A DNA stretch of 13,072 nt from a virus (taxonomy: Duplodnaviria > Heunggongvirae > Uroviricota > Caudoviricetes), in IMG/VR virus record IMGVR_UViG_2671180695_000008, one strand, 5' to 3'. A program made the translations under genes and the position numbers. Below, piece after piece: positions 158 to 12,644 of the stretch. Every line of letters begins with the position of its first letter. Within the stretch, counting starts at the first letter, position 1. The notes under the pieces were generated by a model. The model worked only from the letters and a program-made list of their open reading frames with translations. It did no database searches and had not been told where the DNA came from.

Positions 158-1026
158 AACGAACGCCTGTCCTGATTGATGTGAACGGCGTTCCGCTTCG
201 TGAGAGTCTCAGCTACAACGGGGGCGGTGCAGGATTTGGCGGGCAAATGGCGGAGTGGTTGCCACCGGCGCAGAGTGCCGATGCAGCCCTGCTGCCTGCG
301 TTGCGTCTGGGGAATGCCCGGGCAGATGATCTGGTGCGCAATAACGGGATAGCGGCCAATGCGGTGGCCCTGCATAAGGATCATATTGTCGGGCATATGT
401 TTCTGATCAGCTACCGTCCGAACTGGCGCTGGCTGGGGATGCGGGAGACTGCGGCAAAAAGTTTTGTCGATGAGGTGGAGGCGGCCTGGTCGGAATACGC
501 CGAAGGGATGTTTGGCGAGATCGACGTGGAAGAGAAACGCACGTTTACGGAATTTATTCGTGAAGGTGTGGGCGTTCATGCGTTTAACGGCGAAATCTTT
601 GTGCAGCCGGTCTGGGATACGGAGAGCACGCAACTGTTTCGTACGCGTTTTAAAGCCGTGAGTCCGAAACGGGTGGACACGCCAGGACACGGTATGGGGA
701 ACCGTTTTCTGCGGGCCGGTGTGGAGGTCGATCGATATGGTCGTGCCGTTGCGTACCATATCTGTGAGGATGATTTTCCGTTCTCCGGGAGTGGACGATG
801 GGAACGGATCCCGCGTGAACTTCCCACCGGGCGTCCGGCCATGCTGCATATTTTCGAGCCGGTGGAGGACGGGCAGACCCGTGGGGCTAATCAGTTTTAC
901 AGCGTCATGGAACGGCTGAAGATGCTCGATTCCCTGCAGGCAACACAGCTTCAGTCGGCCATAGTGAAGGCGATTTATGTCTATCATCTCACCGTAGTTG
1001 CCCGCATCGTTCGCCAACTCCACTGA
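154..1026 (+). pseudogene. Portal protein (lambda gpB-like), N-terminal fragment interrupted by an inserted element
   Basis: Translation matches the lambda gpB N-terminal half by recall (GNARADDLVRNNG, FEPVEDGQTRGAN, MLD.LQ.TQLQSAIVKA). Similarity ends after ...SAIVKAIY (codons through 978), followed by 16 unrelated codons (VYHLTVVARIVRQLH) and a stop. The remainder of the portal resumes at 11871. Confidence 0.85.
967..979. other. Candidate attL core (AAGGCGATTTATG) inside the portal coding sequence
   Basis: The same 13-mer with one mismatch (AAGGCGATGTATG) recurs at 11865..11877. Both copies are in the same codon phase of the portal frame, encoding K-A-(I/M)-Y. Confidence 0.65.
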
Positions 1027-1103
1027 AACCCTTGCTGCGTCTGGAATGTCGTTTTCCATGCTTTTGATGACCGTTCATCACCCTTCCAGTTTTTCGCGGT
1101 TTT

Positions 1104-1156
1104 GTGTATTGCAATGTGTATTGCAAATTGGCGATCGGGATGGGTGTGTATTGCAA
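1104..1156. repeat. Three direct copies of GTGTATTGCAA just upstream of int; candidate integrase arm-type binding sites
   Basis: Copies at 1104..1114, 1116..1126 and 1146..1156. Related copies lie at the opposite end of the element (11770..11790). Confidence 0.55.
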
Positions 1157-1174
1157 ATCTCTTGAGGGCTTTTA

Positions 1175-2416
1175 ATGGCTATTGAAAACAAACTCAGTGA
1201 CAAACTGTTAAAGAGTCTTGTCGGAAAACGGCAGGACAAACAAAAAACAATAGCGGATGGGCGCGGGTTGTCTGTGCGTGTAAGCATGGTTGGGGGGATC
1301 AGCTTTGTTTTTTACTATCGTCTTGGTGGCAGGGAATCCCCTCCGGTATGGCTTACACTTGGTCGCTATCCTGACATGTCTCTTGCAACGGCCAGGCGCA
1401 TGCGTGATCAGTGCCGTGAATGGCTGGCTGAAAATCTGGACCCCCGCAGGCAAATAAAACTTGCTGCCGAAAAAACTATGCAACCAGTGACCGTAAGGGA
1501 TGCGCTGTTTTACTGGTACGACAATCACGCCACAACAGCCAGAAAAGAGCATGAATATTTAATAAAACGATTTGAAAAGCATATCTTCCCCTATATCGGT
1601 GATATGGCTATAGAACAGTGCAAATTACACACATGGCTTACCGTCTTTGACAGGATCAAAAAAAATGCGCCTGTTATGTCTGGTGCAATTTTTCTTGATA
1701 TCAAACAGGCGTTGCGTTTTTGTCGCGTCAGGCAATACATCGCGTGCGATCCCTTTGGAGATATTAACGTAAGTTATGTCGGGCGCTCATCCGGTATAAG
1801 GGATCGCGTTCTTAATATCAATGAAACCGCTGATGTATGGTCTTATGCTTACGGTAATAATTTGCTAACTCTGTCATCAATATATAACCGAAGAATAATG
1901 GTTATCTGCCTGGTGTTTGGTTGCCGACAGCAGGAGGCGAGGCTATCCACCTGGGACGAATGGGATTTAAAAAACTGGGTATGGACAGTCCCAAAAGAGC
2001 ACAGCAAAAACAAGGAGGCTATAGTAAGGCCTGTTCCTGACGGAATAAAACAATGGATCGTTAATCTTTACGCAGAAACAAAAAATCGCGGTTATGTTGT
2101 CGGTTGTGCTTTGCAAAGGGCGACAATAACAGGGGCTGCAAACAGAATATGCAGGCGTCTTGGTCATGATACTAATGGCTTGTGGTGCATACATGATTTC
2201 AGGCGCACATTTTCCACTACGCTTAATGATATGGGGGCGGATCCTTATATTGTCGAACTTCTTTTAGGTCATAAAGTGAAAGGGGTTGCTGGTGTTTACA
2301 ATAAAAGCAGGCATATAAAGAAAAAACTTGAGGTGCTTAATATGTGGGTTAATTACCTTAATACGATAGCAGGATTTAACAACAACGTTATCGAGCTTAA
2401 TAAAGAGGTGGTGTGA
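1175..2416 (+). CDS. int: Tyrosine recombinase / integrase (P4-type)
   Basis: 413 aa ORF. N-terminal arm-binding-like region and a C-terminal catalytic region with HDFRRTF...LLGHK...GVAGVY motifs typical of phage integrases. First gene inside the insertion, next to the junction and arm-type repeats. Confidence 0.9.
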   Translation: MAIENKLSDKLLKSLVGKRQDKQKTIADGRGLSVRVSMVGGISFVFYYRLGGRESPPVWLTLGRYPDMSLATARRMRDQCREWLAENLDPRRQIKLAAEKTMQPVTVRDALFYWYDNHATTARKEHEYLIKRFEKHIFPYIGDMAIEQCKLHTWLTVFDRIKKNAPVMSGAIFLDIKQALRFCRVRQYIACDPFGDINVSYVGRSSGIRDRVLNINETADVWSYAYGNNLLTLSSIYNRRIMVICLVFGCRQQEARLSTWDEWDLKNWVWTVPKEHSKNKEAIVRPVPDGIKQWIVNLYAETKNRGYVVGCALQRATITGAANRICRRLGHDTNGLWCIHDFRRTFSTTLNDMGADPYIVELLLGHKVKGVAGVYNKSRHIKKKLEVLNMWVNYLNTIAGFNNNVIELNKEVV

Positions 2417-2417
2417 T

Positions 2418-2675
2418 ATGGCAATTTATTCTCTTGTTGATGAAAACGATTTGCGCACAATGAAGGACATTGATCGGTTCATTCGTGAAAAAGAGTGCAT
2501 AGCACTTACCACGCTGGCAAACTCAACACGCTGGAAAATGGAGCAGGCAGGTAAATTCCCGCGACGTATCAAGATCGGTGAACGTGCTGCAGGGTATCGA
2601 CTTTCAGAGGTTCAGGCATGGATCCGTGGTGAGTGGCATCCTGGATGGAAACCTGGAAAAACAAAACAGCAATAA
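2418..2675 (+). CDS. alpA: AlpA-family HTH regulator / excisionase-like protein
   Basis: 85 aa; motif ...ALTTLANSTRWKMEQAGKFPRRIKIGERAAGYRLSEVQAWI matches the AlpA (Phage_AlpA) fold pattern. Its start overlaps the int stop, and a strong SD (AGAGGTGG) precedes it. Confidence 0.85.
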   Translation: MAIYSLVDENDLRTMKDIDRFIREKECIALTTLANSTRWKMEQAGKFPRRIKIGERAAGYRLSEVQAWIRGEWHPGWKPGKTKQQ

Positions 2676-2688
2676 CCAGTAAATAATG

Positions 2689-2711
2689 CCCCTCATCACG
2701 AGGGGTTTTTT
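2689..2711 (+). terminator. Rho-independent terminator after alpA
   Basis: Stem CCCCTC (2689..2694) pairs with GAGGGG (2700..2705) around loop ATCAC, followed by TTTTTT (2706..2711). Confidence 0.8.
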
Positions 2712-2731
2712 GTCTATAAGGTAAAAACGCG

Positions 2732-3310
2732 ATGAATAAAAATATTGCTGTGACGGGCAAGGGGTACGCTCGTCCAGTGAAAAAATTCTGCGATATTCGT
2801 GATCTCGTCGTTCTGCGCTTTGATAGTGTGAACGTTCGTGTGGTGTATCTGAACGGCGATCCGTGGTTTGTTGCAAAAGATGTTTGTGCTGCGCTGGAAC
2901 TAACCAATTCGCGTACGGCGTTGCAGATGCTTGATGATGATGAAAAGGGAGTAAATTTAACTTACACCCCAGGAGGAAATCAGAATATGAGAATTATCTC
3001 TGAGTCAGGTTTCTACAAACTAATAGCCCGCAGCCGCAAAGCAACGACGCCTGGCACATTTGCTCATCGTTTCAGTAACTGGGTATTCAGAAATGTGATA
3101 CCAGGTATCAGAAAAACGGGGACTTATGGTATCCCGTGGGGTGCATTACAGGATTTTTCCCGCCGTAAAGAGCAATATCAAATAAGTGCCAGCGAGAAGG
3201 GGAGGGAGCTACAGGCATGTAAGCGCAAAAAGCGTGAGCTGGAGGAAGAAGAAAAAACGCTGATACGTGAATATCAGCCTGAGTTTTACTTTGGTAACCG
3301 CATTCAGTGA
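2732..3310 (+). CDS. Bro-N domain protein (phage antirepressor-like)
   Basis: 192 aa; the segment VRVVYLNGDPWFVAKDVCAALELTNSRTALQMLDDDEKG...ISESGFYKLIARSRKATTPGTFAHRFSNWV has the Bro-N / AntA N-terminal pattern (D/E-PWFVAKDV...L.....A). The C-terminal part is charged and probably coiled. Confidence 0.7.
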   Translation: MNKNIAVTGKGYARPVKKFCDIRDLVVLRFDSVNVRVVYLNGDPWFVAKDVCAALELTNSRTALQMLDDDEKGVNLTYTPGGNQNMRIISESGFYKLIARSRKATTPGTFAHRFSNWVFRNVIPGIRKTGTYGIPWGALQDFSRRKEQYQISASEKGRELQACKRKKRELEEEEKTLIREYQPEFYFGNRIQ

Positions 3311-3340
3311 CAAAACAAAGGCGACCGCAAAAGGGTCGCC
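3311..3340 (-). terminator. Hairpin acting mainly as a minus-strand intrinsic terminator, between the convergent Bro and minus-strand genes
   Basis: Stem GGCGACC (3320..3326) pairs with GGTCGCC (3334..3340) around loop GCAAAAG. On the minus strand it is followed by TTTGTTTTGT (plus 3311..3319). No U-run follows on the plus strand. Confidence 0.6.
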
Positions 3341-3406
3341 AGTGGGAACAAGGGAAAACAAAAGCATCACCAACAATGCCACATTTGCGGCTGGTGGGCA
3401 ATGTGA

Positions 3407-3586
3407 TCAGTCAGATTTGGTTCGTTCCAAGGTTTGCAACGAGAGCTTTTTCCTGTGCTCTTTAAGGAATTTCTCAAGAGCAAACGAACAAGGTGCGAAT
3501 CTTTCTGATTCATGTTCATGCGCTATATTTTTGCGTCGTCTCTTACGAGTTGGTGATGGTGTTTTGGTTGATTCTGTGTCGCTCAT
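3407..3586 (-). CDS. Small basic hypothetical protein (59 aa), absent from the supplied ORF track
   Basis: Translated by hand from the minus strand: MSDTESTKTPSPTRKRRRKNIAHEHESERFAPCSFALEKFLKEHRKKLSLQTLERTKSD*. An AGGA lies 8 nt upstream of the ATG; it follows the 3644..3949 gene and precedes the minus-strand terminator. Confidence 0.45.
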   Translation of the reverse strand: MSDTESTKTPSPTRKRRRKNIAHEHESERFAPCSFALEKFLKEHRKKLSLQTLERTKSD

Positions 3587-3643
3587 GGTGCTGTCCTGTA
3601 AAGCAATGCGCCTGCGTTCCTCAAACTATGGCGCTGATATTGG

Positions 3644-3949
3644 CTATTCATGCTCTTTGACCTTGCGTCGCTGGAGTTCTTCACGCGCGACGGTGACGAG
3701 TTGCCCGATCTCCTCGGCTGCTTTGATGCCGATTTGTTCGACCTTAGCCAGGGCATCCAGTGACGACACAAGGGGATTTTCTCCGCTGCCTTCTGCTTGG
3801 CGGCGGGCTATTTCTCCGCGCATGGCGGTTACGATAAATCCGGCATTGCTTTCACCGTCCAGCTTAACGGATTCCATCCCTTGCATAACATCTAGTGGGA
3901 CTCTGACAGTTGTCAGTTGTGATTTTGCGTTTTTGTTAGCCGTTGCCAT
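3644..3949 (-). CDS. Hypothetical small regulator (possible DNA-binding protein), divergent from the rightward operon
   Basis: 101 aa with a strong SD (TAGGAGTTTCAGAA-ATG on the minus strand). It is transcribed divergently from a palindromic operator region. No family is recognised with confidence; a ribbon-helix-helix-like N-terminus is possible but unverified. Confidence 0.55.
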   Translation of the reverse strand: MATANKNAKSQLTTVRVPLDVMQGMESVKLDGESNAGFIVTAMRGEIARRQAEGSGENPLVSSLDALAKVEQIGIKAAEEIGQLVTVAREELQRRKVKEHE

Positions 3950-3970
3950 TTCTGAAACTCCTAATCATCG

Positions 3971-4048
3971 GTGTGTTTCAGTATACACAAAAAAAGAAAT
4001 ACAAAAAGCCTTGACGTGTGTTTCATGCGCTCATAACATGAAACACAC
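3971..4048. promoter_or_regulatory. Divergent control region with a 12-bp perfect inverted repeat, a third half-site and a candidate rightward promoter
   Basis: GTGTGTTTCATG (4016..4027) and its reverse complement CATGAAACACAC (4037..4048) are separated by 9 bp. A further GTGTGTTTCA half-site lies at 3971..3980. TTGACG (4011..4016), a 17-bp spacer and TAACAT (4034..4039) overlap the palindrome. Confidence 0.55.
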
Positions 4049-4139
4049 CGAAAGGATTGTTGAAATACAAAGAGCAACGCCCCGCAGTGCTGGGAACACA
4101 TACGGGGCGTCTAACCAACAACGTAAACTAGGAGCCGTT

Positions 4140-4337
4140 ATGGTTGCTGTAAATCATATACCACACCTTGTACACACACAAACGGCCTTTGTGTGGCGTT
4201 TTCTGGCACTGAGTGCCGGAGAATCTCAAATCATCCACGTAACCGCCTGGACGGAACGCGAAGCGCGTAGCCGTTGCCCGTCCGGTTGTGTTGCTGTATT
4301 CGCTGCAAAAATCCGCCAGGGAGTGAGTCATGCTTAA
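4140..4337 (+). CDS. Hypothetical small protein (65 aa), possible first gene of the rightward operon
   Basis: ATG preceded by AGGAG at the correct spacing. It shares a frame with a long, compositionally odd ORF (3267..4337) that is otherwise rejected, so coding status is uncertain. Confidence 0.35.
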   Translation: MVAVNHIPHLVHTQTAFVWRFLALSAGESQIIHVTAWTEREARSRCPSGCVAVFAAKIRQGVSHA

Positions 4338-4515
4338 AACCTTCCGTGTATTTGCCCGAGCTGTTAACCCAATAGGCCACACAATTGGTATCGCTCAGAA
4401 TGTGAAGGCTGTTAATGTTCAGACGGCTATTGCTGCGGTGAGAAGCGAATCATCAGAATATGGCTTATCACAAGTCATTATTTCAGCAGTGTATGAATTA
4501 AAAGAGGTGCATTAA
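4330..4515 (+). CDS. Hypothetical protein (61 aa)
   Basis: SD GGAGTGAG upstream. Its stop overlaps the next start (TAATG), suggesting translational coupling. Confidence 0.5.
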   Translation: MLKTFRVFARAVNPIGHTIGIAQNVKAVNVQTAIAAVRSESSEYGLSQVIISAVYELKEVH

Positions 4516-4706
4516 TGCAGGAAATTACATTACACGAAGCCGCTGAACGTGCGCACCAGACAGAAATTATTTGCCGCCTTCTTGAGGTATACCCGAACAA
4601 AATTACAGATGCTGATATATCCGCACTGGCGAGCCTACTGGCGCGTCTTTCGGGAAGTGTCGCTAGTTTTTTGATTGAGGAAGAAAGTAAGCTGGTGGGG
4701 GATTAA
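4515..4706 (+). CDS. Hypothetical protein (63 aa)
   Basis: SD AAGAGG upstream; start is coupled to the preceding stop. Confidence 0.5.
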   Translation: MQEITLHEAAERAHQTEIICRLLEVYPNKITDADISALASLLARLSGSVASFLIEEESKLVGD

Positions 4707-4928
4707 ATGAATACAGAACGGGAAGTCTTTTTTAAATTGTTAGCATGTGCAGAAAGTTCATTAACTTTAAATAATTCAGCAAAAGCAATATTAAATATGT
4801 GGCTTGATTGCATAAATGACAATGAAGATGCAAATATTGCTTATGGCCTGTTGTCACTTATTGATGAATCAGCAGAAAAACTCAATGACGCAATAAATAG
4901 TGCCCTGCTATCAAATAAGTCGAGTTAA
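4707..4928 (+). CDS. Hypothetical protein (73 aa), visibly more AT-rich than its neighbours
   Basis: Starts immediately after the previous stop. Its base composition differs from flanking genes, suggesting a separately acquired cargo gene. Confidence 0.5.
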   Translation: MNTEREVFFKLLACAESSLTLNNSAKAILNMWLDCINDNEDANIAYGLLSLIDESAEKLNDAINSALLSNKSS

Positions 4929-4945
4929 GTCGAGGAATAAATAAT

Positions 4946-5245
4946 ATGGAAATGAAAAATTCTGGCTTTATTGCCAGCGGCCCCGCTCGACCTGAATTTA
5001 TGAACGGCGATATTTACCGCGATAAATACGGCGGCACGGTAACGATTAAAGGCGTGGCAGAACGGCGCATCACTTACCGCCGTGAGGGGTATAGCTATGA
5101 CTGCGTGATGCCTGTTTATCAGTTCCGGCGTGATTTTTCCCTGGTATATGCCGCACCCCGCAGTAAGCCCATCAGCAGGGAAAAAGCGTGGGGAAATATC
5201 CAGAAAATGAAAACCATGATTAACGGATTCAGAGGTAAAAAATGA
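4946..5245 (+). CDS. Hypothetical protein (99 aa)
   Basis: SD GAGGA upstream. Its stop overlaps the primase-helicase start (ATGA), placing it in the replication operon. Confidence 0.55.
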   Translation: MEMKNSGFIASGPARPEFMNGDIYRDKYGGTVTIKGVAERRITYRREGYSYDCVMPVYQFRRDFSLVYAAPRSKPISREKAWGNIQKMKTMINGFRGKK

Positions 5246-6996
5246 AACTGGCACCGAACGTAAAACAGCAGTCACGCGGCATAAAACACAAAGGAACAGA
5301 AGTCATTATTTTTGCGGGTAGTGATGCCTGGGCACACGCGAAACAATGGCAGGAACATGATGCGCGTATGGCCGGAGATAATGAGCCTCCTGTGTGGCTT
5401 GGGGAGCAGCAGCTATCCGAACTGGATAATCTGCAAATTGTGCCGGAAGGCCGAAAATCAGCACGCATATACAGGGCCGGATATCTTGCGCCTGTAATGA
5501 TAAAGGCGATTGGTCAGAAGCTGGCGGCAGCAGGCGTACAGGATGCAAATTTTTATCCTGAGGGTATGCACGGCCAGGAGGTGCAGAACTGGCGCGAATA
5601 TCTGGCCCGTGAACGCCAGAATCTTTCTGATGGTCTGGTCATTGAGCTTCCGGTAAAGCAAAAGGCGCAACTTTCGCAGATGGCGGACAGTGAGCGCGCG
5701 CAGTTGCTTGCCGATCGCTTTGATGGCGTTTGCGTACATCCTGAAAGTGAAATCGTTCACGTATGGCGCGGCGGGGTATGGTGTCCGGTCAGCACAATGG
5801 AACTTAGCCGCGAAATGGTGGCGATCTATTCAGAGCACAGGGCCACTTTCAGCAAGCGCGTAATCAATAACGCCGTGGAAGCGTTAAAAGTTATTGCCGA
5901 ACCAATGGGCGAGCCGTCTGGCGATTTGCTGCCGTTCGCCAATGGTGCGCTTGACCTGAAAACGGGGGAATTTTCCCCGCACACGCCGGAGAACTGGATC
6001 ACCACGCACAACGGCATTGAGTACACGCCACCAGCACCAGGGGAGAACATCCGCGATAACGCGCCAAACTTTCATAAATGGCTTGAGCACGCAGCCGGAA
6101 AAGACCCGCGCAAGATGATGCGTATATGTGCCGCGCTGTACATGATTATGGCGAACCGGTACGACTGGCAGATGTTTATTGAGGCCACCGGAGACGGCGG
6201 GAGCGGTAAAAGTACATTCACACACATAGCCAGCCTTCTGGCAGGGAAACAGAACACGGTAAGCGCTGAAATGACATCGCTTGATGATGCTGGTGGACGT
6301 GCGCAGGTTGTCGGGAGTCGTCTTATCGTCCTGGCTGACCAGCCGAAATATACAGGCGAAGGAACGGGCATCAAGAAAATCACAGGCGGCGACCCCGTGG
6401 AAATTAACCCGAAATATGAAAAGCGTTTCACGGCGGTAATCAGGGCGGTGGTGCTGGCGACCAACAACAACCCGATGATATTCACCGAACGGGCCGGAGG
6501 TGTGGCACGTCGTCGCGTGATTTTCCGTTTCGACAATATCGTCAGTGAGGCCGAAAAAGACAGGGAGCTACCGGAAAAGATTGCGGCTGAAATCCCCGTT
6601 ATTATCCGCCGATTGCTGGCGAACTTTACCGACCCTGAGAAGGCACGGGCTTTACTACTGGAACAGCGTGACGGTGATGAAGCACTGGCAATAAAGCAAC
6701 AGACGGATCCGGTTATTGAGTTTTGCCAGTTCCTGAATTTTCTGGAGGAAGCGCGCGGCCTGATGATGGGTGGCGGTGGTGATTCAGTGAAGTACACGAC
6801 CAGGAACAGCCTTTACCGCGTCTATCTGGCGTTTATGGCATACGCGGGCAGGAGCAAACCGCTAAACGTGGCTGAGTTCAGCAAGGCCATGAAGCCAGCG
6901 GCGAAAGTTTACGGGCATGAATATATTACGCGAAAAGTTAAGGGAGTAACGCAGACCAACGCAATTACAACAGACGATTGCGACGCGTTTTTATAA
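5242..6996 (+). CDS. Replication protein: P4-alpha / D5-type primase-helicase (SF3 P-loop NTPase)
   Basis: 584 aa. Walker A motif ATGDGGSGKST, a D5_N-like segment LPFANGALDLKTGEF and a following NTPase core resemble the C-terminal helicase region of P4-family primases. The N-terminal ~150 aa are not confidently assigned. An iteron array follows immediately. Confidence 0.85.
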   Translation: MKLAPNVKQQSRGIKHKGTEVIIFAGSDAWAHAKQWQEHDARMAGDNEPPVWLGEQQLSELDNLQIVPEGRKSARIYRAGYLAPVMIKAIGQKLAAAGVQDANFYPEGMHGQEVQNWREYLARERQNLSDGLVIELPVKQKAQLSQMADSERAQLLADRFDGVCVHPESEIVHVWRGGVWCPVSTMELSREMVAIYSEHRATFSKRVINNAVEALKVIAEPMGEPSGDLLPFANGALDLKTGEFSPHTPENWITTHNGIEYTPPAPGENIRDNAPNFHKWLEHAAGKDPRKMMRICAALYMIMANRYDWQMFIEATGDGGSGKSTFTHIASLLAGKQNTVSAEMTSLDDAGGRAQVVGSRLIVLADQPKYTGEGTGIKKITGGDPVEINPKYEKRFTAVIRAVVLATNNNPMIFTERAGGVARRRVIFRFDNIVSEAEKDRELPEKIAAEIPVIIRRLLANFTDPEKARALLLEQRDGDEALAIKQQTDPVIEFCQFLNFLEEARGLMMGGGGDSVKYTTRNSLYRVYLAFMAYAGRSKPLNVAEFSKAMKPAAKVYGHEYITRKVKGVTQTNAITTDDCDAFL

Positions 6997-7010
6997 TTTT
7001 TTGTAAAAGC

Positions 7011-7232
7011 CATCTACCCCATCTACCTGAACAAAATAAACGCATATTATTCAACATGATAAGTGGGTATAGGGCTAGGTAGAAGGCTAATAAAAGCTCT
7101 CTACCTCTTCTACCTGATTTTATCAGTTTCAGGTAGCAGGGTAGACGGCAGGTAGAGGAGTCAAAAAGCTATCTACCCGCTGAAAGCCGCGCCATTACTG
7201 ACATGATGAGCATTCGGGTAGATGGGTAGAGG
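7011..7232. repeat. Iteron array; candidate replication origin
   Basis: About 11 copies of the core TCTACC / GGTAGA in both orientations within ~220 bp (for example CATCTACCCCATCTACC, CTCTACCTCTTCTACC, GGTAGCAGGGTAGACGGCAGGTAGAGG, GGTAGATGGGTAGAGG). It lies directly downstream of the primase-helicase gene in an otherwise non-coding stretch. Confidence 0.7.
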
Positions 7233-7280
7233 GGGGGAGGCACAACTAAAAACTTTTTAAACGAGGGGGGGTGAAAATAA

Positions 7281-7595
7281 ATGCGCATACATAAAAATCA
7301 CTTAACAAACATGCCAGCCGAAAACATGAATCAGGGGCGACAAATGACCAAAATTCGCAGAGACAGAACACAGGCAAAATATAAAGCGTTAGACATGACA
7401 GAGCTTTCCTTAAAGGTGGCAATCAAAGCGATAGACCACCACACACGGGCAGGATACGCGAAGGAACATCCCGACCTGATAAGCGCATTCATGACCACAG
7501 CAGCGGCAAACTTTGCCACGCTGACAGAACGGGAGATTGCCGAAGCGGAACAGGTGACAACCATCAATGTTAAAACCGGAGAGCAGACAGCATGA
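7281..7595 (+). CDS. Hypothetical protein (104 aa)
   Basis: G-rich SD (GAGGGGGGG) upstream. Its stop overlaps the next start (ATGA). The start codon is uncertain because internal Met codons exist. Confidence 0.5.
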   Translation: MRIHKNHLTNMPAENMNQGRQMTKIRRDRTQAKYKALDMTELSLKVAIKAIDHHTRAGYAKEHPDLISAFMTTAAANFATLTEREIAEAEQVTTINVKTGEQTA

Positions 7596-8014
7596 CAGCA
7601 CAGATAGCGGCTTACGGGCGGCTGGTGGCTGACCCGCAGTTAAAGACCACCAGCAAAGGGACACAAATGGCGATGGCGAGTATGGCGGTTCCCCTGCCGT
7701 GCAGCCAGGCAGATGACGGAACGGCGACGATGTGGTTATCCGTCCTGGCGTTTGGCAGACAGGCCGACGCACTGGCAAAACACCACAAAGGCGAACTGGT
7801 GAGCGTGGCGGGTAACATGCAGGTAAGCCAGTGGACAGGCCAGAACGGCGAAACGCGGCGGGGCTGGCAGGTTATCGCAGACAGCGTAATCAGTGCGCGA
7901 ACGGCGCGACCGGGCGGCAAAAAAGGCCAGCAGGGGCAGGCCACTGACGCACTGAACAGGGCAAAACAACAGTCGGGGAATGATGATCCGTACGGCGATA
8001 ATATACCGTTTTAA
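7592..8014 (+). CDS. ssb: Single-stranded DNA-binding protein-like (OB fold, C-terminal ...NIPF tail)
   Basis: 140 aa with the pattern GRLVADPQL...G...A.......W.SV.AFG..A..LAK..KGELV.V.G......W....G..R.....ADSV, then a Gly/Gln-rich linker ending DDPYGDNIPF. This resembles the SSB OB core and its acidic ...DDDIPF protein-interaction tail. Confidence 0.7.
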   Translation: MTAQIAAYGRLVADPQLKTTSKGTQMAMASMAVPLPCSQADDGTATMWLSVLAFGRQADALAKHHKGELVSVAGNMQVSQWTGQNGETRRGWQVIADSVISARTARPGGKKGQQGQATDALNRAKQQSGNDDPYGDNIPF

Positions 8015-8021
8015 ATTCTGC

Positions 8022-8050
8022 AAACAAAAAGATGCCGGAAAAAAATAGAT
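8022..8050. other. 11-bp-stem hairpin in the SSB / capsid intergenic region (possible terminator or regulatory structure)
   Basis: ATGCCGGAAAA (8022..8032) pairs with TTTTCCGGCAT (8040..8050) around a 7-nt loop. No clean U-run follows on the plus strand, so terminator function is uncertain. Confidence 0.4.
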
Positions 8051-8225
8051 TTTCCGGCATGCTACATAAATCCCGACCAAAGGAAGTAAATACATTAACA
8101 CGAATTATCAGCACTGAAGTTGTTACGGCATATTTTATACAACATTGCACTTGGTTGCATGTATTCGCATAGCAGACATCGGTAATAGAATATATTCACA
8201 ATTATTTGTAATGAATGTAAAGAGG

Positions 8226-9272
8226 ATGAGTATGGTTGATTTATATTCGCCTACACAGCTTGTGCAGGTGGCTAATGCTGAAGATGTGCAAAAAAAATTA
8301 AATGCGTTGTTTACCAGTTTGTTTTTCACTCGCTCGGTAATGTTTGAATCGAGAGACATTATTCTTGATACGATCGACGATCCAAATATCCCGATCGCGG
8401 CGTTTTGCTCTCCTATGGTGGGCAGTAAAGTTTCACGAGATGAGGGATACGAATCAAAAACAATTCGTCCAGGTTATATGAAGCCGAAAAGCAGCATTGA
8501 TCCAAATAAGTTAGCTGTGCGCCCTGCTGGTGTGTCACCTGAGCAATACAATGCTTTTGGGGCGCGTAATATTAAAGTTAAACAGGCGATTGTAAATCAG
8601 GCTAAAGCTATTCGTGCACGTATTGAATGGCTTGCTGTTCAGGCAATCACAACGGGGAAAAATATCATTGAGGGCGATGGTATTGAACGTTATGAGCTGG
8701 ACTGGAATATAAAACCACAAAATATCATCACTCAGTCTGGCGGTACTGAGTGGTCAGGTAAGGATAAAGAAACTTTTGATCCAAATGATGATATTGAGAG
8801 CTACGCAGAATTTAGTGAGGGCGTCACTAATATCATCATTATGGGTGGTAATGTATGGAAGAAATACCGTTCATTCAGAGCGATAAAAGAGGCTTTGGAT
8901 ACCCGTCGTGGTTCTAATTCCGAACTGGAAACGGCCCTTAAAGACCTTGGTGATTCGGTGAGTTTTAAAGGGTATATGGGCGATGTTGCGATTGTTGTTT
9001 ACAGCGGGCGTTATACCGACGAGGACGGAACAGAAAAACATTTCCTTGATCCTGATTTGATGGTGCTTGGCAATACGGCTCTTCAGGGGATTGTCGCCTA
9101 TGGCGGTATTCAGGATCCGGAGCTAATCCGAATGGGGCTGACTAAAGCCGAACTTGCACCGAAAAACTATATTGTGCCTGGTGATCCGGCTATTGAATAT
9201 GTGCAGACACATTCAGCACCACAGCCAATACCGGCCCGCATCAATCGTTTTGTTACCGTTCGCATTGGCTAA
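8226..9272 (+). CDS. Major capsid protein (lambda gpE-like)
   Basis: Motifs NIITQSGGTEWS, DTRRGSNSELETA, GDVAIVVYSG and MVLGNT match lambda E as recalled. The chosen start MSMVDLYSPTQL parallels lambda MSMYTTAQL and has SD AGAGGA; the ORF track's upstream start at 8145 is less likely. Confidence 0.85.
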   Translation: MSMVDLYSPTQLVQVANAEDVQKKLNALFTSLFFTRSVMFESRDIILDTIDDPNIPIAAFCSPMVGSKVSRDEGYESKTIRPGYMKPKSSIDPNKLAVRPAGVSPEQYNAFGARNIKVKQAIVNQAKAIRARIEWLAVQAITTGKNIIEGDGIERYELDWNIKPQNIITQSGGTEWSGKDKETFDPNDDIESYAEFSEGVTNIIIMGGNVWKKYRSFRAIKEALDTRRGSNSELETALKDLGDSVSFKGYMGDVAIVVYSGRYTDEDGTEKHFLDPDLMVLGNTALQGIVAYGGIQDPELIRMGLTKAELAPKNYIVPGDPAIEYVQTHSAPQPIPARINRFVTVRIG

Positions 9273-9281
9273 GGGGGAGCA

Positions 9282-9623
9282 ATGGCTACTCATTACACTG
9301 AACTCATGGCTGGCACTGAAGCACTGGTGACTACGCTGGGGATATTTTCAGCTAATAAAGGGGTAATTCCTGCATTTACGCCACTGATGCAGGAAGATGC
9401 AACAGGTGCACTGGTGGTATGGGATGGTTCGAGCGTAGGTAAAGCGGTTTATGTTTCCGCTGTACAAATCGACACAGCGAAAAAAACACAGGCACAGGTT
9501 TATAAGACAGGTGTTTTAAATGTTGATGCTCTGAACTGGCCTGAGTCTGTAAAAGAACTGTCGGCAAAGGTTGCCGCGTTTGTTGGCTCAGGTATTTCTG
9601 TTCAGCCGCTGGCTCGTGTGTAA
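9282..9623 (+). CDS. Head decoration protein (lambda gpD-like)
   Basis: 113 aa; the pattern TPLM....G.LV.WDG...G.AV.......T.....YK.G......L.WPE matches lambda D as recalled. SD GGGGGAG upstream. It follows the capsid gene, the reverse of the lambda D-E order. Confidence 0.75.
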   Translation: MATHYTELMAGTEALVTTLGIFSANKGVIPAFTPLMQEDATGALVVWDGSSVGKAVYVSAVQIDTAKKTQAQVYKTGVLNVDALNWPESVKELSAKVAAFVGSGISVQPLARV

Positions 9624-9634
9624 AGGGGGATACA

Positions 9635-10018
9635 ATGCAGAATCATTACAATGACCTTAAGCCAATTGCCGAAATGATGTATCCGGATCCAGCAGTAGAG
9701 GAATTAAAGGCTATTGCTGACAAAATGCGTTTAAGTGAACGCCTTGTTGATATGAATCAGGTGATGGAACTTACTACCCTTAGCCGTCGCACATTGCTAA
9801 ACCTTGAGGCTCGCGGAGAGTTCCCCGAACGCGTACAGGTTACGGAAGGGCGTAAGGCCTGGTATTTAAGTGAAGTGATCGACTGGATAAACAATATTCC
9901 TCGATCTTCTGAATATTGCCGCGTACCTGTCCCAAAAAAGCCAGATGCGGCGCTATGCCTCAAGATTGAGCGTGTACGTCGCAATGCACGGGATGGTCGC
10001 TATAAGTTGATTGGTTGA
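9635..10018 (+). CDS. AlpA/MerR-like HTH domain protein (second AlpA-family member)
   Basis: 127 aa; the segment VDMNQVMELTTLSRRTLLNLEARGEFPERVQVTEGRKAWYLSEVIDWI fits the AlpA-type HTH pattern. It has an N-terminal extension and a basic C-terminus, a GGGGGA SD upstream, and lies immediately upstream of the cos site. Confidence 0.6.
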   Translation: MQNHYNDLKPIAEMMYPDPAVEELKAIADKMRLSERLVDMNQVMELTTLSRRTLLNLEARGEFPERVQVTEGRKAWYLSEVIDWINNIPRSSEYCRVPVPKKPDAALCLKIERVRRNARDGRYKLIG

Positions 10019-10029
10019 TGAAATTAGGG

Positions 10030-10108
10030 CCCGTTCTGGCTGGCGGGTCCTTTCCGGCGATCCGGTAGGCTACGGGGCGGCGACCTCGCGGGTTTTCGCT
10101 ATTTATGA
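10030..10108. other. Lambda-type cos site (cosQ-proximal sequence plus cosN with the 12-nt cohesive end GGGCGGCGACCT)
   Basis: 10072..10108 ACGGGGCGGCGACCTCGCGGGTTTTCGCTATTTATGA is identical to the recalled lambda cosN / left-end sequence (cohesive end at 10075..10086). The upstream GGGTCCTTTCCGGCGATCCGGTAGGCTACG closely matches the recalled lambda right-end sequence. Downstream cosB-like sequence has diverged, and a Nu1-like gene follows. Confidence 0.85.
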
Positions 10109-10219
10109 GCCTTTTTCGGGTGCTGGTGGTGGTTTTGTTGTTCGCTCTATCTCTATGAATAAAAAGGAAAAGATAAAGCCAATACACCAACCTGAAACAT
10201 TACTTAAGTGGGGATATTG

Positions 10220-10762
10220 ATGAAATCGCACCTGATGAACAAAAAAAACATGGCGCAAAGCTGCCATGTAAGTGCGACAGCGTTCGACAAGTGGGGAGTG
10301 ACTCCCGTTGAACGTAAAGGCCGCGAGGCGTTTTATGATGTTGCCAGCGTAATAGACAATCGGGTTAGCAATGCAATTAACCAGATTACAGACGACAAAG
10401 GCGAGATTGATGATGATGAACTCCTACGAGTCAGGATCAGATTGCTGACAGCACAGGCAGAGGCGCAGGAGCTTAAAAACGAGCGCGAACGCGGCGACGT
10501 TATTGATACCGCGTTTTGTATATACGTGCTTTCAAAATTGGCGAGTCAGATTTCTTCAATCATGGACAGCCTGCCGCTTGCCATGACAAGGAAGTTTCCC
10601 GACATGAAGCCGTCTATGCTGGATGGACTGAAAAAAGAAGTTATCAGAGCCTGTAACGCATGCGCAAAACTTGACGAAAACATACCGCTGATGCTGTCCG
10701 ATTATCTGATGGAAACTGCCGGAAACGTACCGGATAAGTTGCAGCCGAATAAAGATAAGTAA
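10220..10762 (+). CDS. Terminase small subunit (lambda Nu1-like)
   Basis: Matches lambda Nu1 by recall (RLTRAQADAQELKNARD...ETAFC.FVLSRIAGEIASILDGLPL...RFPE compared with RLLTAQAEAQELKNERERGDVIDTAFCIYVLSKLASQISSIMDSLPLAMTRKFPD). Start is uncertain: ATG at 10220 (GGGGA SD) is chosen, with alternatives GTG 10208 and ATG 10235. It sits downstream of cos as in lambda. Confidence 0.85.
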   Translation: MKSHLMNKKNMAQSCHVSATAFDKWGVTPVERKGREAFYDVASVIDNRVSNAINQITDDKGEIDDDELLRVRIRLLTAQAEAQELKNERERGDVIDTAFCIYVLSKLASQISSIMDSLPLAMTRKFPDMKPSMLDGLKKEVIRACNACAKLDENIPLMLSDYLMETAGNVPDKLQPNKDK

Positions 10763-10773
10763 CGTAGTACGCT

Positions 10774-11055
10774 ATGACTGAATCCGAAATACTGCGATTA
10801 ATCCGCCGTGCTTGTGGAATCAGCAAGCAGCATGACGAACAGGCCACGCAGCCGGACAGCGTGACCGCAGATAATTATGTGCGTGTAGTGGCTGAGGTGA
10901 TGCGCCGTGACGGTATTGAGCTTAACGGCGTGGATATGCGCAACATACGAACAAGAGTCCTTGAGTTGCTGGCATATCGTCGCCGTTCTCAACAACGGAG
11001 GGAGAGCGCGAAAAACACTTACCAGTGGAAGAAGCCGGAACGATTGCGGCGGTAA
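10774..11055 (+). CDS. Hypothetical basic protein (93 aa) in the position where lambda encodes the large terminase
   Basis: ORF starts 11 nt after the TerS stop and is Arg-rich. No convincing family match; no obvious SD, so possibly translationally coupled. Confidence 0.45.
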   Translation: MTESEILRLIRRACGISKQHDEQATQPDSVTADNYVRVVAEVMRRDGIELNGVDMRNIRTRVLELLAYRRRSQQRRESAKNTYQWKKPERLRR

Positions 11056-11070
11056 CTTGCTGATATTCCC

Positions 11071-11094
11071 GATAACGCAAAATTGCGCTGGCTG
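11071..11094. repeat. Direct repeat GATAACGC-N5-TTGCGCTGGCTG (copy 1; copy 2 at 11257..11280)
   Basis: The two 24-bp copies differ at 3 positions and lie 186 bp apart in the non-coding right arm. Each is followed by a TTGCA/TGCAA-type near-palindrome. Confidence 0.5.
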
Positions 11095-11306
11095 ACTTGT
11101 TGCATTGCAAAAAGTTAAGCAGGAAGGCACGGCCTGTAAGATGGGATGCAGTAAGTAGTTCAAGGCTACCTTGTGCTGGCACGCACAGTTAAGCCGTCGG
11201 TGCTGGATATCCCCCACTGGGGGAAAAGCTGGCTACATCCCTCACATCTGAGGACTGATAACGCGACATTGCGCTGGCTGGCAAAGTGCAAAATTGCACG
11301 ATGGCC

Positions 11307-11468
11307 TAACCCATTGATTATTTCGAAAACCTGCAATGCAGGAAATCGGGGAAGTAAGCCTAAGCTATTGATTGTTTCGAAAACCCCCATTGGGGGATGT
11401 CGGGAAAGTAAGACTAACCCATTGATTCTTCCACAATCCTCAATTTGAGGAGGCCGGAACGTCTACAT
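11307..11468. repeat. Tandem ~54-bp repeat (3 units) each containing a 5-bp-stem, 3-nt-loop hairpin with covarying stems; candidate structured RNA or recognition array
   Basis: Units 11307..11360, 11361..11414 and 11415..11468 share TAA(C/G)C(C/T)ATTGATT...TTCGAAAAC and CGGG.AAGTAAG flanks. Internal hairpins are CCTGC-AAT-GCAGG (11330..11342), CCCCC-ATT-GGGGG (11384..11396) and CCTCA-ATT-TGAGG (11438..11450). The third unit is more diverged. Confidence 0.6.
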
Positions 11469-11769
11469 AGCTGCATCGCCGTAATGATGATTCAGCCCAC
11501 CAGCCAAATCAGCACAGCAACGACAGAATAGCCCGACACAGAAAAACCACGAATATGGGGTTTTTGTTATGACATGGTCATGATGACCACTCATACAAAA
11601 CAGGTAAAGCCCACCAGCCTGATTAAAGGTTAACCGGAAAAAAGCCAGGTATCCAATCTCGATATGGGGATCCCTATATCGACATTAACGCCCACTAAAA
11701 CTGTGCATATATGCATAGAAAAAGCATCCACCAGCTTTATGACGGATGCCGCTCATCTTATAAATAATC

Positions 11770-11790
11770 GTGTATTGCAGTGTGTATTGC
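11770..11790. repeat. Two direct copies of GTGTATTGC(A) near the right junction; candidate integrase arm-type sites
   Basis: GTGTATTGCA at 11770..11779 and GTGTATTGC at 11782..11790, in the same orientation as the three copies beside int. An AT-rich tract lies between them and the att core. Confidence 0.5.
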
Positions 11791-11864
11791 GACTCCTTTA
11801 AACGATAGGTCTGAGCATTCGTAATGTACTGTTTTTAAATTTTATTTTTTCCTGTCTTTTCATA

Positions 11865-11877
11865 AAGGCGATGTATG
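11865..11877. other. Candidate attR core (AAGGCGATGTATG)
   Basis: Matches 967..979 at 12 of 13 positions. Portal homology resumes here (IKAMYAATIE...). Confidence 0.65.
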
Positions 11878-12644
11878 CAGCGACGATTGAAAGTGACCTT
11901 GATACCGAAAAGGCCTTTGAATATATCGCCGGTGCGCCGCAGGGGCAGAAGGATAATCCGCTTATTAATATTCTGGATAAGTTCTCCACCTGGTATGACA
12001 CGAATAGCGTGACGCTGGGTGGTGTCAAAATTCCGCACCTTTTCCCCGGTGATGATCTGAAACTTCAGACCGCGCAGGATTCAGACAATGGATTTTCGGC
12101 GCTTGAACAGGCGCTGCTGCGGTATATCGCCGCCGGTCTTGGCGTTTCCTACGAACAGTTGTCCCGTGATTACTCGAAGGTCAGTTATTCAAGTGCCCGC
12201 GCATCCGCCAATGAGTCGTGGCGCTATTTTATGGGGCGGCGAAAATTTATTGCGTCCCGGCTGGCCACGCAGATGTTTTCCTGCTGGCTGGAAGAGGCAC
12301 TTCTTCGGGGGATTATTCGTCCGCCACGGGCACGTTTTGATTTTTATCAGGCGCGATCAGCCTGGTCACGGGCTGAGTGGATTGGAGCCGGAAGAATGGC
12401 CATTGACGGGCTCAAGGAGGTTCAGGAATCAGTGATGCGCATTGAGGCCGGACTGAGCACGTATGAGAAAGAGCTGGCGCTGATGGGCGAGGATTATCAG
12501 GACATTTTCCGCCAGCAGGTCAGGGAATCTGCAGAGCGGGAAAAAGCCGGACTCTCACGTCCGGTGTGGATAGCGCAGGCGTATCAGCAGAAGATAGCGG
12601 AGAGTCGCAGGCCGGAAGAGGAGACAACACCACGTGAGACGTAA
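11871..12644 (+). pseudogene. Portal protein (lambda gpB-like), C-terminal fragment downstream of the insertion
   Basis: Translation MYAATIESDLDTEKAFEYI...LGGVKIPHLFPGDDLKLQTAQDSDNGFSALEQALLRYIAAGLGVSYEQLSRDYSKVSYSSARASANESWRYFMGRRKF...WIGAGRMAIDGLKEVQESVMRIEAGLSTYEKE matches the lambda gpB C-terminal half by recall. The ORF begins at a fortuitous in-frame ATG, and similarity starts at about 11862. Confidence 0.85.

What the first reader, a model, noticed from the sequence alone, without database searches (positions are those of the whole stretch)
11307..11468. Tandem 54-bp repeat whose internal hairpins keep pairing through compensatory changes
Three units share conserved flanks but carry different 5-bp stems (CCTGC/GCAGG, CCCCC/GGGGG, CCTCA/TGAGG) around 3-nt loops. 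Covariation that preserves pairing points to selection on structure, as in RNA or single-stranded DNA. It is not a CRISPR array, because the conserved and variable parts are arranged the other way round. It could be a structured non-coding RNA array, a decoy, a processing substrate or a packaging recognition element; I cannot tell which.
Basis: seen in the sequence. Interest (0 to 1): 0.8.

Follow-up and report, generated by a model that had tools for sequence, protein, structure and literature searches.

The report
Phage regulator docking sites in satellite
The tandem repeat is a non-coding array, carried by a phage-parasitic island, of short DNA modules copied from inside a phage regulator gene (roi); each module is a host bending-protein (IHF) site beside a small symmetric site, so the 'compensatory hairpins' are most likely double-stranded protein-binding sites and not RNA.

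Summary
In detail: three 54-bp units lie at 11304-11465, each with a perfect 13-bp dyad whose arms differ between units. Across 25 non-coding and 29 gene-borne homologues the dyad keeps pairing through double changes. The RNA reading is not supported. There is no Rfam hit, fold energies match shuffles, and mismatches show no strand bias.

Each unit is homologous (79-96%) to an 18-codon stretch in the N-terminal Rha-type DNA-binding domain of lambdoid phage roi/antirepressor genes. The three units match three allelic classes of that gene. Each unit also carries an exact IHF consensus; with one more in the same cassette, these are the window's only matches.

The array is the core of a larger cassette (11053-11465). 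It sits in the variable far end of an EcCICFT073-like PICI embedded in a prophage portal gene. It is neither cos nor the known attP motif, and some related islands lack it.

Best explanation: a multi-allele array of IHF-plus-operator modules that docks or titrates Roi-type phage regulators. Binding and function are inferred, not shown. I found no description of this array in the searchable literature. Interest is moderate to high.

The parts
11053..11094 (.). Module 0: IHF consensus (TATCAGCAAGTTA on the minus strand, 11053-11065), spacer, and dyad CGCAA-AA-TTGCG (11076-11087). It overlaps the stop codon of the 93-aa ORF.
   Evidence: weak nhmmer hit at 11053-11072. The same module directly precedes the units in L376 and L377.
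11204..11230 (.). Degenerate module: dyad TCCCCCA-C-TGGGGGA (11210-11224) with the right flank AAAGCTGG and no intact IHF core.
   Evidence: (D4)
11240..11253 (.). Short dyad CCTCA-CATC-TGAGG. It has the same arm sequence as unit 3 with a 4-nt centre.
11257..11280 (.). Partial second copy of the right half of module 0 (GATAACGCGACATTGCGCTGGCTG, 92% to 11071-11094).
   Evidence: D3
11286..11299 (.). Leader dyad GTGCAA-AA-TTGCAC, which immediately precedes the first unit in this and other satellites.
11304..11357 (.). Unit 1: IHF consensus AATCAATGGGTTA (minus strand, 11307-11319) and dyad CCTGCAATGCAGG (11330-11342). It corresponds to the phage roi allele class ...LPALQVFEKINNLG.
   Evidence: 38/48 to the nearest phage allele
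11358..11411 (.). Unit 2: IHF consensus AATCAATAGCTTA (minus strand, 11361-11373) and dyad CCCCCATTGGGGG (11384-11396). It corresponds to the roi class ...NPPMVVFEKINNLG of HK629/VT2-Sakai, where the dyad has one mismatch.
   Evidence: 41/48
11412..11465 (.). Unit 3: IHF consensus AATCAATGGGTTA (minus strand, 11415-11427) and dyad TCCTCAATTTGAGGA (11437-11451). It corresponds to the antirepressor class ...HPQIEDCGRINGLG of phage phi330 (96% over 50 nt).

Best explanation
The repeat is the core of a non-coding cassette (11053-11465) in the variable far end of a helper-embedded PICI. The cassette is built of roughly 48-bp modules. Each module is an IHF binding site (WATCARNNNNTTR on the minus strand), a 10-bp A/T-rich spacer and a 13-bp dyad. 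The modules are homologous to an 18-codon stretch inside the N-terminal Rha-type winged-helix domain of lambdoid phage roi/antirepressor genes, which carry the same IHF site and dyad. The three tandem units match three allelic classes of that gene. I infer that the modules act as double-stranded DNA. IHF bends the DNA next to a dyad operator that is bound by a dimer of a Roi-type regulator. The arms covary because both half-sites of an operator must change together when specificity changes. The satellite has collected several specificities side by side, so its DNA docks or titrates Roi-type regulators of several lambdoid phages (a decoy or a sensor). Shown here: the anatomy, the homology, the IHF consensus, the covariation, the conservation pattern and the genomic context. 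Inferred: binding by IHF and Roi, and the benefit to the satellite.
For: (1) Homology. Unit 2 is 90.6% identical to roi of HK629/VT2-Sakai and unit 3 is 96% identical to an antirepressor gene of phi330, at codons about 41-58. Unit 1's dyad is that of the LPALQV allele class. Each unit is nearer to a phage allele (38-45 of 48) than to its sister units (32-37 of 48). (2) IHF. The only exact WATCAANNNNTTR matches in the 13 kb are one per unit (1 of 200 shuffles reach 3), and a fourth WATCAR match sits in module 0. In 25 non-coding units the invariant columns are T4, A6 and T12-T15, which form the IHF core. The N positions vary, and the Y and W positions vary only within their class. 22 of 25 units keep the full consensus. 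(3) Dyad covariation is seen in non-coding and in gene copies. (4) Constraint after capture. Of 224 differences between non-coding units and their nearest phage allele, 11 fall in the 9 IHF core columns (42 expected) and 26 in the 13 dyad columns (61 expected). There is no third-codon-position excess (58/104/62). (5) HK022 roi carries CTGCATTGCAG followed by AATCAATGATTTA, the only IHF consensus match in 12.7 kb of that phage. From my memory of the abstract of Clerget & Boccard 1996 (PMID 8763934; the paper is not held), Roi binds a site within its own gene that is closely linked to an IHF site, and IHF stabilises the binding. (6) RNA tests are negative. (7) The cassette is accessory. It is absent from related PICIs that keep the downstream motifs. 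It is present at the int-distal end of other satellite families. It is inverted in one of them. (8) This island encodes no Rha-domain protein, and one array holds several different dyads. Both points fit binders supplied by different phages.
Against: No binding data exist for these units. The Roi/IHF binding statement rests on memory and the site was not mapped here. The lambda-like prophage that hosts this PICI has no roi gene, so the array cannot target its own helper's Roi. Lambda, which lacks roi, still induces EcCICFT073 alpA (PMC6092414), so the array is not the main induction switch. The dyad types in the array are mostly inherited from phage alleles, so covariation in the satellite copies is not independent evidence. 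The units are related by descent, so the p-values are inflated. The NPPMVV phage allele keeps an imperfect dyad although a synonymous change would perfect it. This weakens the idea of strong selection for symmetry in phages.
Confidence: 0.5

Rival explanations
1. The array is transcribed and works as RNA. It could be an antisense RNA against roi/antirepressor mRNAs of several phage types, since the + strand is antisense to roi. It could also be a structured RNA whose hairpins are the functional parts.
For: In this island the array lies downstream of, and co-oriented with, the late operon, with no strong terminator in between. The + strand is antisense to phage roi, with 79-96% identity per unit. 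Hairpin covariation is real.
Against: There is no Rfam match even at E<=1. Fold energies are not better than shuffles (z -0.81 and -0.63). Non-Watson-Crick cells show no strand bias (4 G.T-type, 4 A.C-type, 3 other). A candidate outer helix has no covariation. Stems of 5-6 bp with 1-3 nt loops are marginal. Conservation follows the degenerate IHF consensus and not overall complementarity to the target. Unit 2 is a perfect dyad at the cost of a mismatch to the phage gene. The cassette is inverted relative to island genes in L380.
Confidence: 0.15
2. The modules are strong IHF sites used for the satellite's own DNA transactions, such as excision or integration, replication, packaging or transcription control. 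In that case the dyads are bound by a satellite or host protein, not by a phage Roi.
For: The cassette always lies near the int-distal end of the island, next to conserved motifs (AGCCCACCAGCC repeats and a 32-bp palindrome). The IHF consensus is the best-conserved part. The 54-bp spacing is close to five helical turns.
Against: The known HE-PICI attP motif lies at -81/+132 of the attP centre (PMC10111431), which corresponds to window 11769-11793 and 1103-1126. The array is 400-560 bp away. Unit number (0-4), spacing and orientation relative to the att end all vary. cos is elsewhere. One array holds several different dyads, which a single satellite protein is unlikely to read. This reading does not explain why each unit tracks a different phage roi allele.
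Confidence: 0.15
3. The array is neutral debris: short fragments of phage Bro-network (Rha/KilAC antirepressor) genes left by repeated recombination in a dynamic zone of the satellite, with no function.
For: PICI late and Bro zones are known to exchange DNA with prophages (PMC10111431). Other short fragments in these non-coding ends match other antirepressor genes (Ant of VT2-Sakai, a KilAC gene of a Hafnia phage). Degenerate modules are present (11204-11300).
Against: Only the same roughly 48-bp segment is ever captured, never its coding neighbours. Differences from phage alleles avoid the IHF core and the dyad and are not coding-like. Dyads stay perfect while the flanks diverge. Array-like DNA, counting the phage gene copies as well, is found in 833 of 5426 complete E. 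coli genomes; the satellite cassette itself turns up in several satellite families.
Confidence: 0.15
4. The units are silent 18-codon cassettes: in-frame donors for gene conversion that switches the DNA-binding specificity of roi-type genes in phages or satellites.
For: Each unit is exactly 18 codons, is in frame with its neighbours, and has conserved flanks around a variable centre. The Bro-network genes are noted for domain swapping.
Against: This island has no expression locus. In other satellites the units are not in frame or evenly spaced. Substitutions are not coding-like.
Confidence: 0.05

Closest known systems
Roi binding site plus IHF site inside the roi gene of phage HK022 (Clerget & Boccard 1996, J Bacteriol 178:4077; recalled from the abstract, paper not held)
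   Same: Each unit is homologous to the same segment of roi genes. HK022 roi carries the dyad CTGCATTGCAG and an IHF consensus 12 bp downstream at the equivalent codons.
   Different: Here the element is non-coding, multiplied, combines several allelic specificities, and sits in a satellite that has no roi gene. In the phage it is a single site inside the coding sequence.
Titration or decoy arrays of regulator binding sites (for example E. coli datA for DnaA with IHF, P1 incA iterons)
   Same: Clustered binding sites, in some cases IHF-assisted, whose proposed role is to sequester a regulator and not to control an adjacent promoter.
   Different: Those arrays repeat one specificity for the cell's or plasmid's own protein. 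This array would collect different specificities aimed at proteins of other genetic elements. Binding is not shown.
IHF sites in lambda attP and cosB
   Same: Exact match to the IHF core consensus with an A/T-rich stretch on the 5' side.
   Different: The array is not next to cosN, is not at the positions of the HE-PICI attP motif, and is dispensable in related islands.
CRISPR arrays
   Same: A phage-derived, allele-diverse library stored in tandem in a mobile element.
   Different: There are no conserved repeats separating variable spacers and no cas genes. The units are homologous to each other, and the variable part is a 13-bp dyad.
P4-type immunity RNAs (CI/seqA; Rfam C4, isrK) found in some PICI Bro zones
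   Same: Non-coding regulatory elements of satellites that derive from within Bro-network genes (PMC10111431).
   Different: There is no Rfam match in this window. The array is in the late or distal zone, and the evidence favours DNA-level function.

Membership tests
Structured non-coding RNA | Match to a curated RNA family | tested here: not met
   cmscan of the whole window at E<=1 gave 0 matches.
Structured non-coding RNA | Folding more stable than composition-matched shuffles | tested here: not met
   z = -0.81 for the + strand and -0.63 for the - strand over the 162-nt array. Single hairpins have only -4 to -6 kcal/mol as DNA.
Structured non-coding RNA | Covariation that keeps base pairs | tested here: met
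   This feature is equally expected for a dyad-symmetric DNA operator, so it does not discriminate.
Structured non-coding RNA | Strand-specific tolerance of G.U pairs | tested here: not met
   4 G.T-type, 4 A.C-type and 3 other mismatched cells in 25 units. The sample is small.
Structured non-coding RNA | A stable transcript | not testable with these tools
   No expression data are available. The promoter/terminator scan is uninformative.
IHF binding site | Core consensus WATCARNNNNTTR | tested here: met
   All four matches in the window lie in the cassette. 22 of 25 non-coding and 29 of 29 gene units match. Variation follows the degeneracy of the consensus.
IHF binding site | Binding and bending by IHF | not testable with these tools
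   This needs gel shift, footprinting or ChIP.
Roi operator of lambdoid phage roi genes | Homology to the dyad-plus-IHF segment inside roi | tested here: met
Roi operator of lambdoid phage roi genes | Specific binding by Roi protein | not testable with these tools
   The published binding (PMID 8763934) is recalled from memory. The paper is not held and the site is not mapped here.
CRISPR array | Identical repeats alternating with unrelated spacers, and cas genes nearby | tested here: not met
   The units are homologous throughout. No cas domains were found in the island.
cos packaging site (cosB R sites with IHF site) | Immediately adjacent to cosN | tested here: not met
   An exact lambda cosN lies at 10075-10086 with cosQ homology at 10040-10074. 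The array is 1.2 kb downstream.
attP arm of HE-PICI integrases | Doubled TGTATTGC motif at -81 and +132 of the attP centre, with fixed geometry | tested here: not met
   The motif lies at 11769-11793 and 1103-1126 (PMC10111431). The array lies outside it, and varies in copy number, spacing and orientation.
REP/BIME (RIP) elements with IHF sites | REP consensus palindromes flanking the IHF site | tested here: not met
   No REP-like match in or near the array at up to 3 mismatches.
Protein-coding repeat on the minus strand | Intact ORF with coding-like substitution pattern and family match | tested here: not met
   The 74-aa minus-strand ORF has no PHROG hit. ORFs are broken in other satellites. 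Differences by codon position are 58/104/62.

The most novel reading that the evidence does not exclude
Phage satellites carry a non-coding 'operator library': an array in which each unit mimics the IHF-assisted autoregulatory site of a different allele of a phage regulator (Roi/Rha-KilAC antirepressor). When the satellite amplifies, the array titrates that regulator and disturbs phages that carry it. This would be a DNA-decoy form of inter-element conflict, with an allele repertoire that is acquired from phages.
Probability: 0.25. Interest if true: 0.85.

Novelty: new variant of a known kind. Interest (0 to 1): 0.6.

Why it matters
If the modules bind IHF and Roi-type proteins, they would be a new kind of accessory trait of phage satellites. 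The trait would be a non-coding array that stores binding sites for several allelic versions of a phage regulator, and not a gene. That would give a testable handle on the poorly understood Roi/Rha antirepressor family, whose link to IHF has been unexplained since the 1990s. It would also show that dyad covariation in a coding sequence can mark a protein-binding site embedded in the gene for that protein's own DNA-binding domain. Array-like DNA occurs in 833 of 5426 complete E. coli genomes, a count that includes the phage roi-gene copies; 233 carry at least 80% of the array query. The satellite copies inspected are unannotated, among them those in O157:H7 strains. The result is also a caution: compensatory changes in a palindrome do not by themselves show RNA structure.

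Tried and rejected
- **Rfam and tRNA/tmRNA scans:** nothing found.
- **cos hypothesis:** rejected, because lambda cosQ/cosN lies at 10040-10110.
- **attP-arm hypothesis:** rejected on position, on variability and on inversion of the cassette.
- **Minus-strand ORF (11390-11166, 74 aa):** no family match, and it is broken in relatives. A '230-codon gene' call in L167 proved to be a spurious ORF across an array, so one row of alignment A2 is really a satellite unit. Removing it does not change the picture.
- **Outer helix (columns 19-21 with 45-47):** pairing equals the shuffles, so there is no covariation.
- **REP/BIME:** no match.
- **Protein scan of one genome per species with the 93-aa neighbour:** no loci found.
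- **DNA-pattern scan of the same collection:** almost only chance hits outside Enterobacterales. These hits served as a control, with 0-4 of 6 dyad pairs.
- **First viral pattern:** mis-specified; it caught only the unit-3 class.
- **Solved structures of Roi:** none.
- **Clerget & Boccard paper:** could not be read. No searchable paper links Roi to PICIs.
- **'Coding constraint prevents a perfect dyad in the NPPMVV allele':** rejected, because a synonymous CCC to CCA change would perfect it.
- **Own-helper target:** the prophage hosting this PICI has no roi.

Full report
**Observation.** The window holds three in-register 54-bp units at 11304-11357, 11358-11411 and 11412-11465 (Tandem Repeats Finder; the repeat finder; sequence). 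Each unit contains a perfect 13-bp odd palindrome: CCTGCA-A-TGCAGG, CCCCCA-T-TGGGGG and TCCTCAA-T-TTGAGGA. The 11000-11500 bin holds nine short palindromes against about two per 500 bp elsewhere. Five of the window's eleven perfect 13-mers lie between 11211 and 11576. The finding is therefore real at the stated coordinates, and it is not a chance pattern.

**Context.**
- The window is an EcCICFT073-like Gram-negative PICI. It encodes:
  - an integrase (1175-2416);
  - AlpA;
  - a Bro-N protein;
  - a D5-type primase (5242-6996);
  - SSB;
  - a lambda-E-like capsid protein (8145-9272);
  - a gpD-like decoration protein;
  - a second AlpA-like protein;
  - a Nu1-like small terminase (10208-10762);
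  - a 93-aa protein (PMC6092414).
- It is inserted inside a lambda-family portal gene. The N-terminal part of that gene is at 154-1026 and the C-terminal part at 11871-12644.
- An identical copy in E. coli CFSAN064035 shows the surrounding lambda-like prophage.
- This is the helper-embedded PICI configuration described by Tommasini et al. (PMC10111431), at their site B:Phage_portal_2:241. Their doubled attP motif tgTGTATTGCantgTGTATTGCa is at 1103-1126 and 11769-11793.
- Lambda cosQ/cosN homology, with an exact cosN, lies at 10040-10110 just upstream of the terminase gene.
- The repeat is therefore neither cos nor the known attP motif. It lies in the unannotated 800 bp between the last late gene and the attachment site.

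**What the units are.** BLAST against phage genomes placed the units, on the opposite strand, inside roi/antirepressor genes of lambdoid phages.
- Unit 2 is 90.6% identical to roi of HK629 and VT2-Sakai.
- Unit 3 is 96% identical to an antirepressor gene of phi330.
- The matched stretch is codons about 41-58 of a 240-aa protein with an N-terminal Rha domain and a C-terminal KilAC domain.
- 54 bp is 18 codons.
- A survey of roi alleles in IMG/VR found, at that position, the dyads CCTGCATTGCAGG (LPALQV, the dyad of unit 1), CCCCCAATGGTGG (NPPMVV, one mismatch; unit 2 is the perfect version) and CCTCAAATTGAGG (PQIE, unit 3). Further alleles carry CCTCCAATGGAGG, CCTGCAATGCAGG and CCTCAATTTGAGG.
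- Each window unit is closer to a phage allele (38-45 of 48) than to its sister units (32-37 of 48).
- The three units therefore represent three allelic classes of one phage gene segment.

**IHF sites.** The conserved flank of each unit is an exact IHF core consensus on the minus strand (AATCAATGGGTTA, AATCAATAGCTTA, AATCAATGGGTTA). These are the only three WATCAANNNNTTR matches in the 13 kb, and 1 of 200 shuffles reaches three. With R allowed at the sixth position, a fourth match appears at 11053-11065, next to another dyad (CGCAAAATTGCG). This defines a fourth module. Degenerate modules and a leader dyad (GTGCAAAATTGCAC) fill 11204-11300. In phage genes the IHF core is encoded by ...I-N-x-L-G.

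**Covariation.** An nhmmer survey of all fetched loci gave 29 distinct units in gene context and 25 usable distinct units in non-coding satellite context.

| Measure | Non-coding units | Gene units |
|---|---|---|
| Cells paired | 95.3% | 96.6% |
| Pairs with double-sided changes | 4 of 6 | 2 of 6 |
| Covariation score | 0.506 | 0.268 |
| Shuffled control | 0.146 (0/500 reach observed) | 0.083 (0/500 reach observed) |
| Slid-partner control | at most 0.12 | at most 0.014 |

Chance matches of the flank pattern in unrelated genomes show only 0-4 of 6 pairs.

**RNA or DNA?** Covariation of a short inverted repeat is expected both for a hairpin and for a dyad-symmetric operator. The other tests point to DNA.
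- There is no Rfam match.
- The array folds no better than shuffles on either strand (z -0.81 and -0.63).
- Mismatched cells are 4 G.T-type, 4 A.C-type and 3 other, so no strand is favoured.
- A possible outer helix has no covariation.
- In the non-coding units the invariant columns are exactly the IHF core. The N positions vary freely, and the Y and W positions vary only within their class.
- Of 224 differences between non-coding units and their nearest phage allele, only 11 fall in the nine IHF core columns (42 expected) and 26 in the 13 dyad columns (61 expected). There is no third-codon-position excess. These counts are not phylogenetically independent, so the p-values are inflated, but the pattern is clear.
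- In a P4-like island next to dinD the whole cassette is inverted relative to the island's genes and to its end. This is hard to reconcile with a co-transcribed RNA or with an intasome component.

**Link to known biology.** HK022 roi carries CTGCATTGCAG and, 12 bp downstream, AATCAATGATTTA. That is the only IHF consensus match in the right 12.7 kb of the phage. From my memory of the abstract of Clerget & Boccard 1996 (PMID 8763934), Roi binds a site within its own gene that is closely linked to an IHF site, and IHF stabilises that binding. I could not read the paper. Citing papers confirm only that Roi is a DNA-binding protein connected with IHF-dependent lytic growth. I therefore infer, but have not shown, that the dyad is the Roi operator.

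**Distribution.**
- Array-like DNA occurs in 833 of 5426 complete E. coli genomes. In 233 of them at least 80% of the array query is covered.
- In the satellite copies inspected it is unannotated. In phages it lies in genes annotated as KilAC antirepressor or Rha family.
- The same cassette (module 0, leader dyad, one to three units) sits at the int-distal end of other satellite types. These are an O157:H7 island and a TerL-encoding island next to clpS, and the P4-like island next to dinD.
- Related PICIs have from zero to four units at variable spacing, and further dyads (CAGCCAACGGCTG, TTCGCCAGCGGCGAA). Some keep the downstream conserved motifs but have no units.
- The cassette is therefore an accessory, variable feature.

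**Mechanism proposed.** Each module is a double-stranded docking site. IHF bends the DNA next to a dyad operator that is read by a dimer of a Roi-type regulator. The arms covary because a change of specificity requires both half-sites to change. The satellite has lined up several specificities, so its DNA can bind Roi-type proteins of several lambdoid phages, either as a sink or as a sensor.

Two facts limit this proposal:
- The prophage that hosts this PICI has no roi gene, so the target would be other phages.
- Lambda, which lacks roi, still induces EcCICFT073 alpA, so the array is not the main induction switch.

Three rivals get about 0.15 each: an RNA function, an architectural role in the satellite's own DNA transactions, and neutral debris from recombination. 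Silent coding cassettes get 0.05.

**Novelty.** The island type, its insertion in the portal gene, the attP motif and the cos site are all published. I found no description of this array. The HE-PICI paper does not mention it, and no searchable paper links Roi with PICIs. I rate it a new variant of a known kind: clustered, IHF-assisted regulator binding sites that were captured from inside a phage gene and assembled as a multi-allele array in satellites. It deserves binding and deletion experiments.

Noticed in passing
154-1026 and 11871-12644; island about 975-11870: The island splits a lambda-family portal gene (Pfam profile positions 2-242 and 238-354). It is therefore a helper-embedded PICI at the published site B:Phage_portal_2:241. 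The short identity block AAGGCGAT.TATG occurs at about 967-980 and about 11865-11878.
   Followed up: yes
1103-1126 (also 1145-1156) and 11769-11793: Doubled motif TGTGTATTGCA, identical to the HE-PICI attP motif of Tommasini et al. It is not the crossover site itself.
   Followed up: yes
10040-10110: Strong homology to lambda cosQ/cosN, with an exact GGGCGGCGACCT at 10075-10086. Similarity to lambda ends about 25 bp to the right of cosN, so cosB differs, as published for EcCICFT073. The terminase-like protein matches only the C-terminal part of Nu1 (Rpp-like).
   Followed up: partly
11494-11505, 11608-11619, 11728-11740 and 11655-11686: AGCCCACCAGCC repeats (spacing 114 and 117 bp) and a 32-bp palindrome AATCTCGATATGGGGA/TCCCTATATCGACATT. 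Both are conserved in satellites that use other attachment sites (for example L375 next to clpS), where they flank the array. Their function is unknown; they may be Int or AlpA binding sites.
   Followed up: partly
L379 (NZ_CP031134.1 96900-116900) and L373: The prophage that hosts the island sits at the lambda attB (next to ybhC) and is lambda-like. It has no roi or antirepressor gene in its nin region. Its major capsid gene is interrupted by IS621, so the helper is probably defective.
   Followed up: partly
L073 3406-3447 and 3536-3566: Other short stretches of PICI non-coding ends match other antirepressor genes (a KilAC gene of Hafnia phage Pocitis76, 26 of 26 nt; Ant of VT2-Sakai, 93.5% of 31 nt). 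The region may be a patchwork of fragments from several Bro-network genes.
   Followed up: no
7010-7027 and 7216-7234: Short tandem repeats (CCATCTACC x2, GGGTAGAG x2.4) just downstream of the primase gene. This is a plausible replication origin of the island.
   Followed up: no
phage roi genes (L083-L162, L374): A protein-coding gene keeps a perfect 13-bp dyad through compensatory double substitutions across alleles (PQIE, PALQ, PPME, PAMQ, PQFE). The dyad lies in the codons of the gene's own DNA-binding domain, so binding site and binding domain would be physically coupled.
   Followed up: partly
3267-4337: The mechanical 356-aa ORF is probably not a gene. RefSeq annotates several small genes there instead, including an Icd-like cell-division inhibitor and a YlcI/YnfO family protein on the opposite strand.
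   Followed up: no
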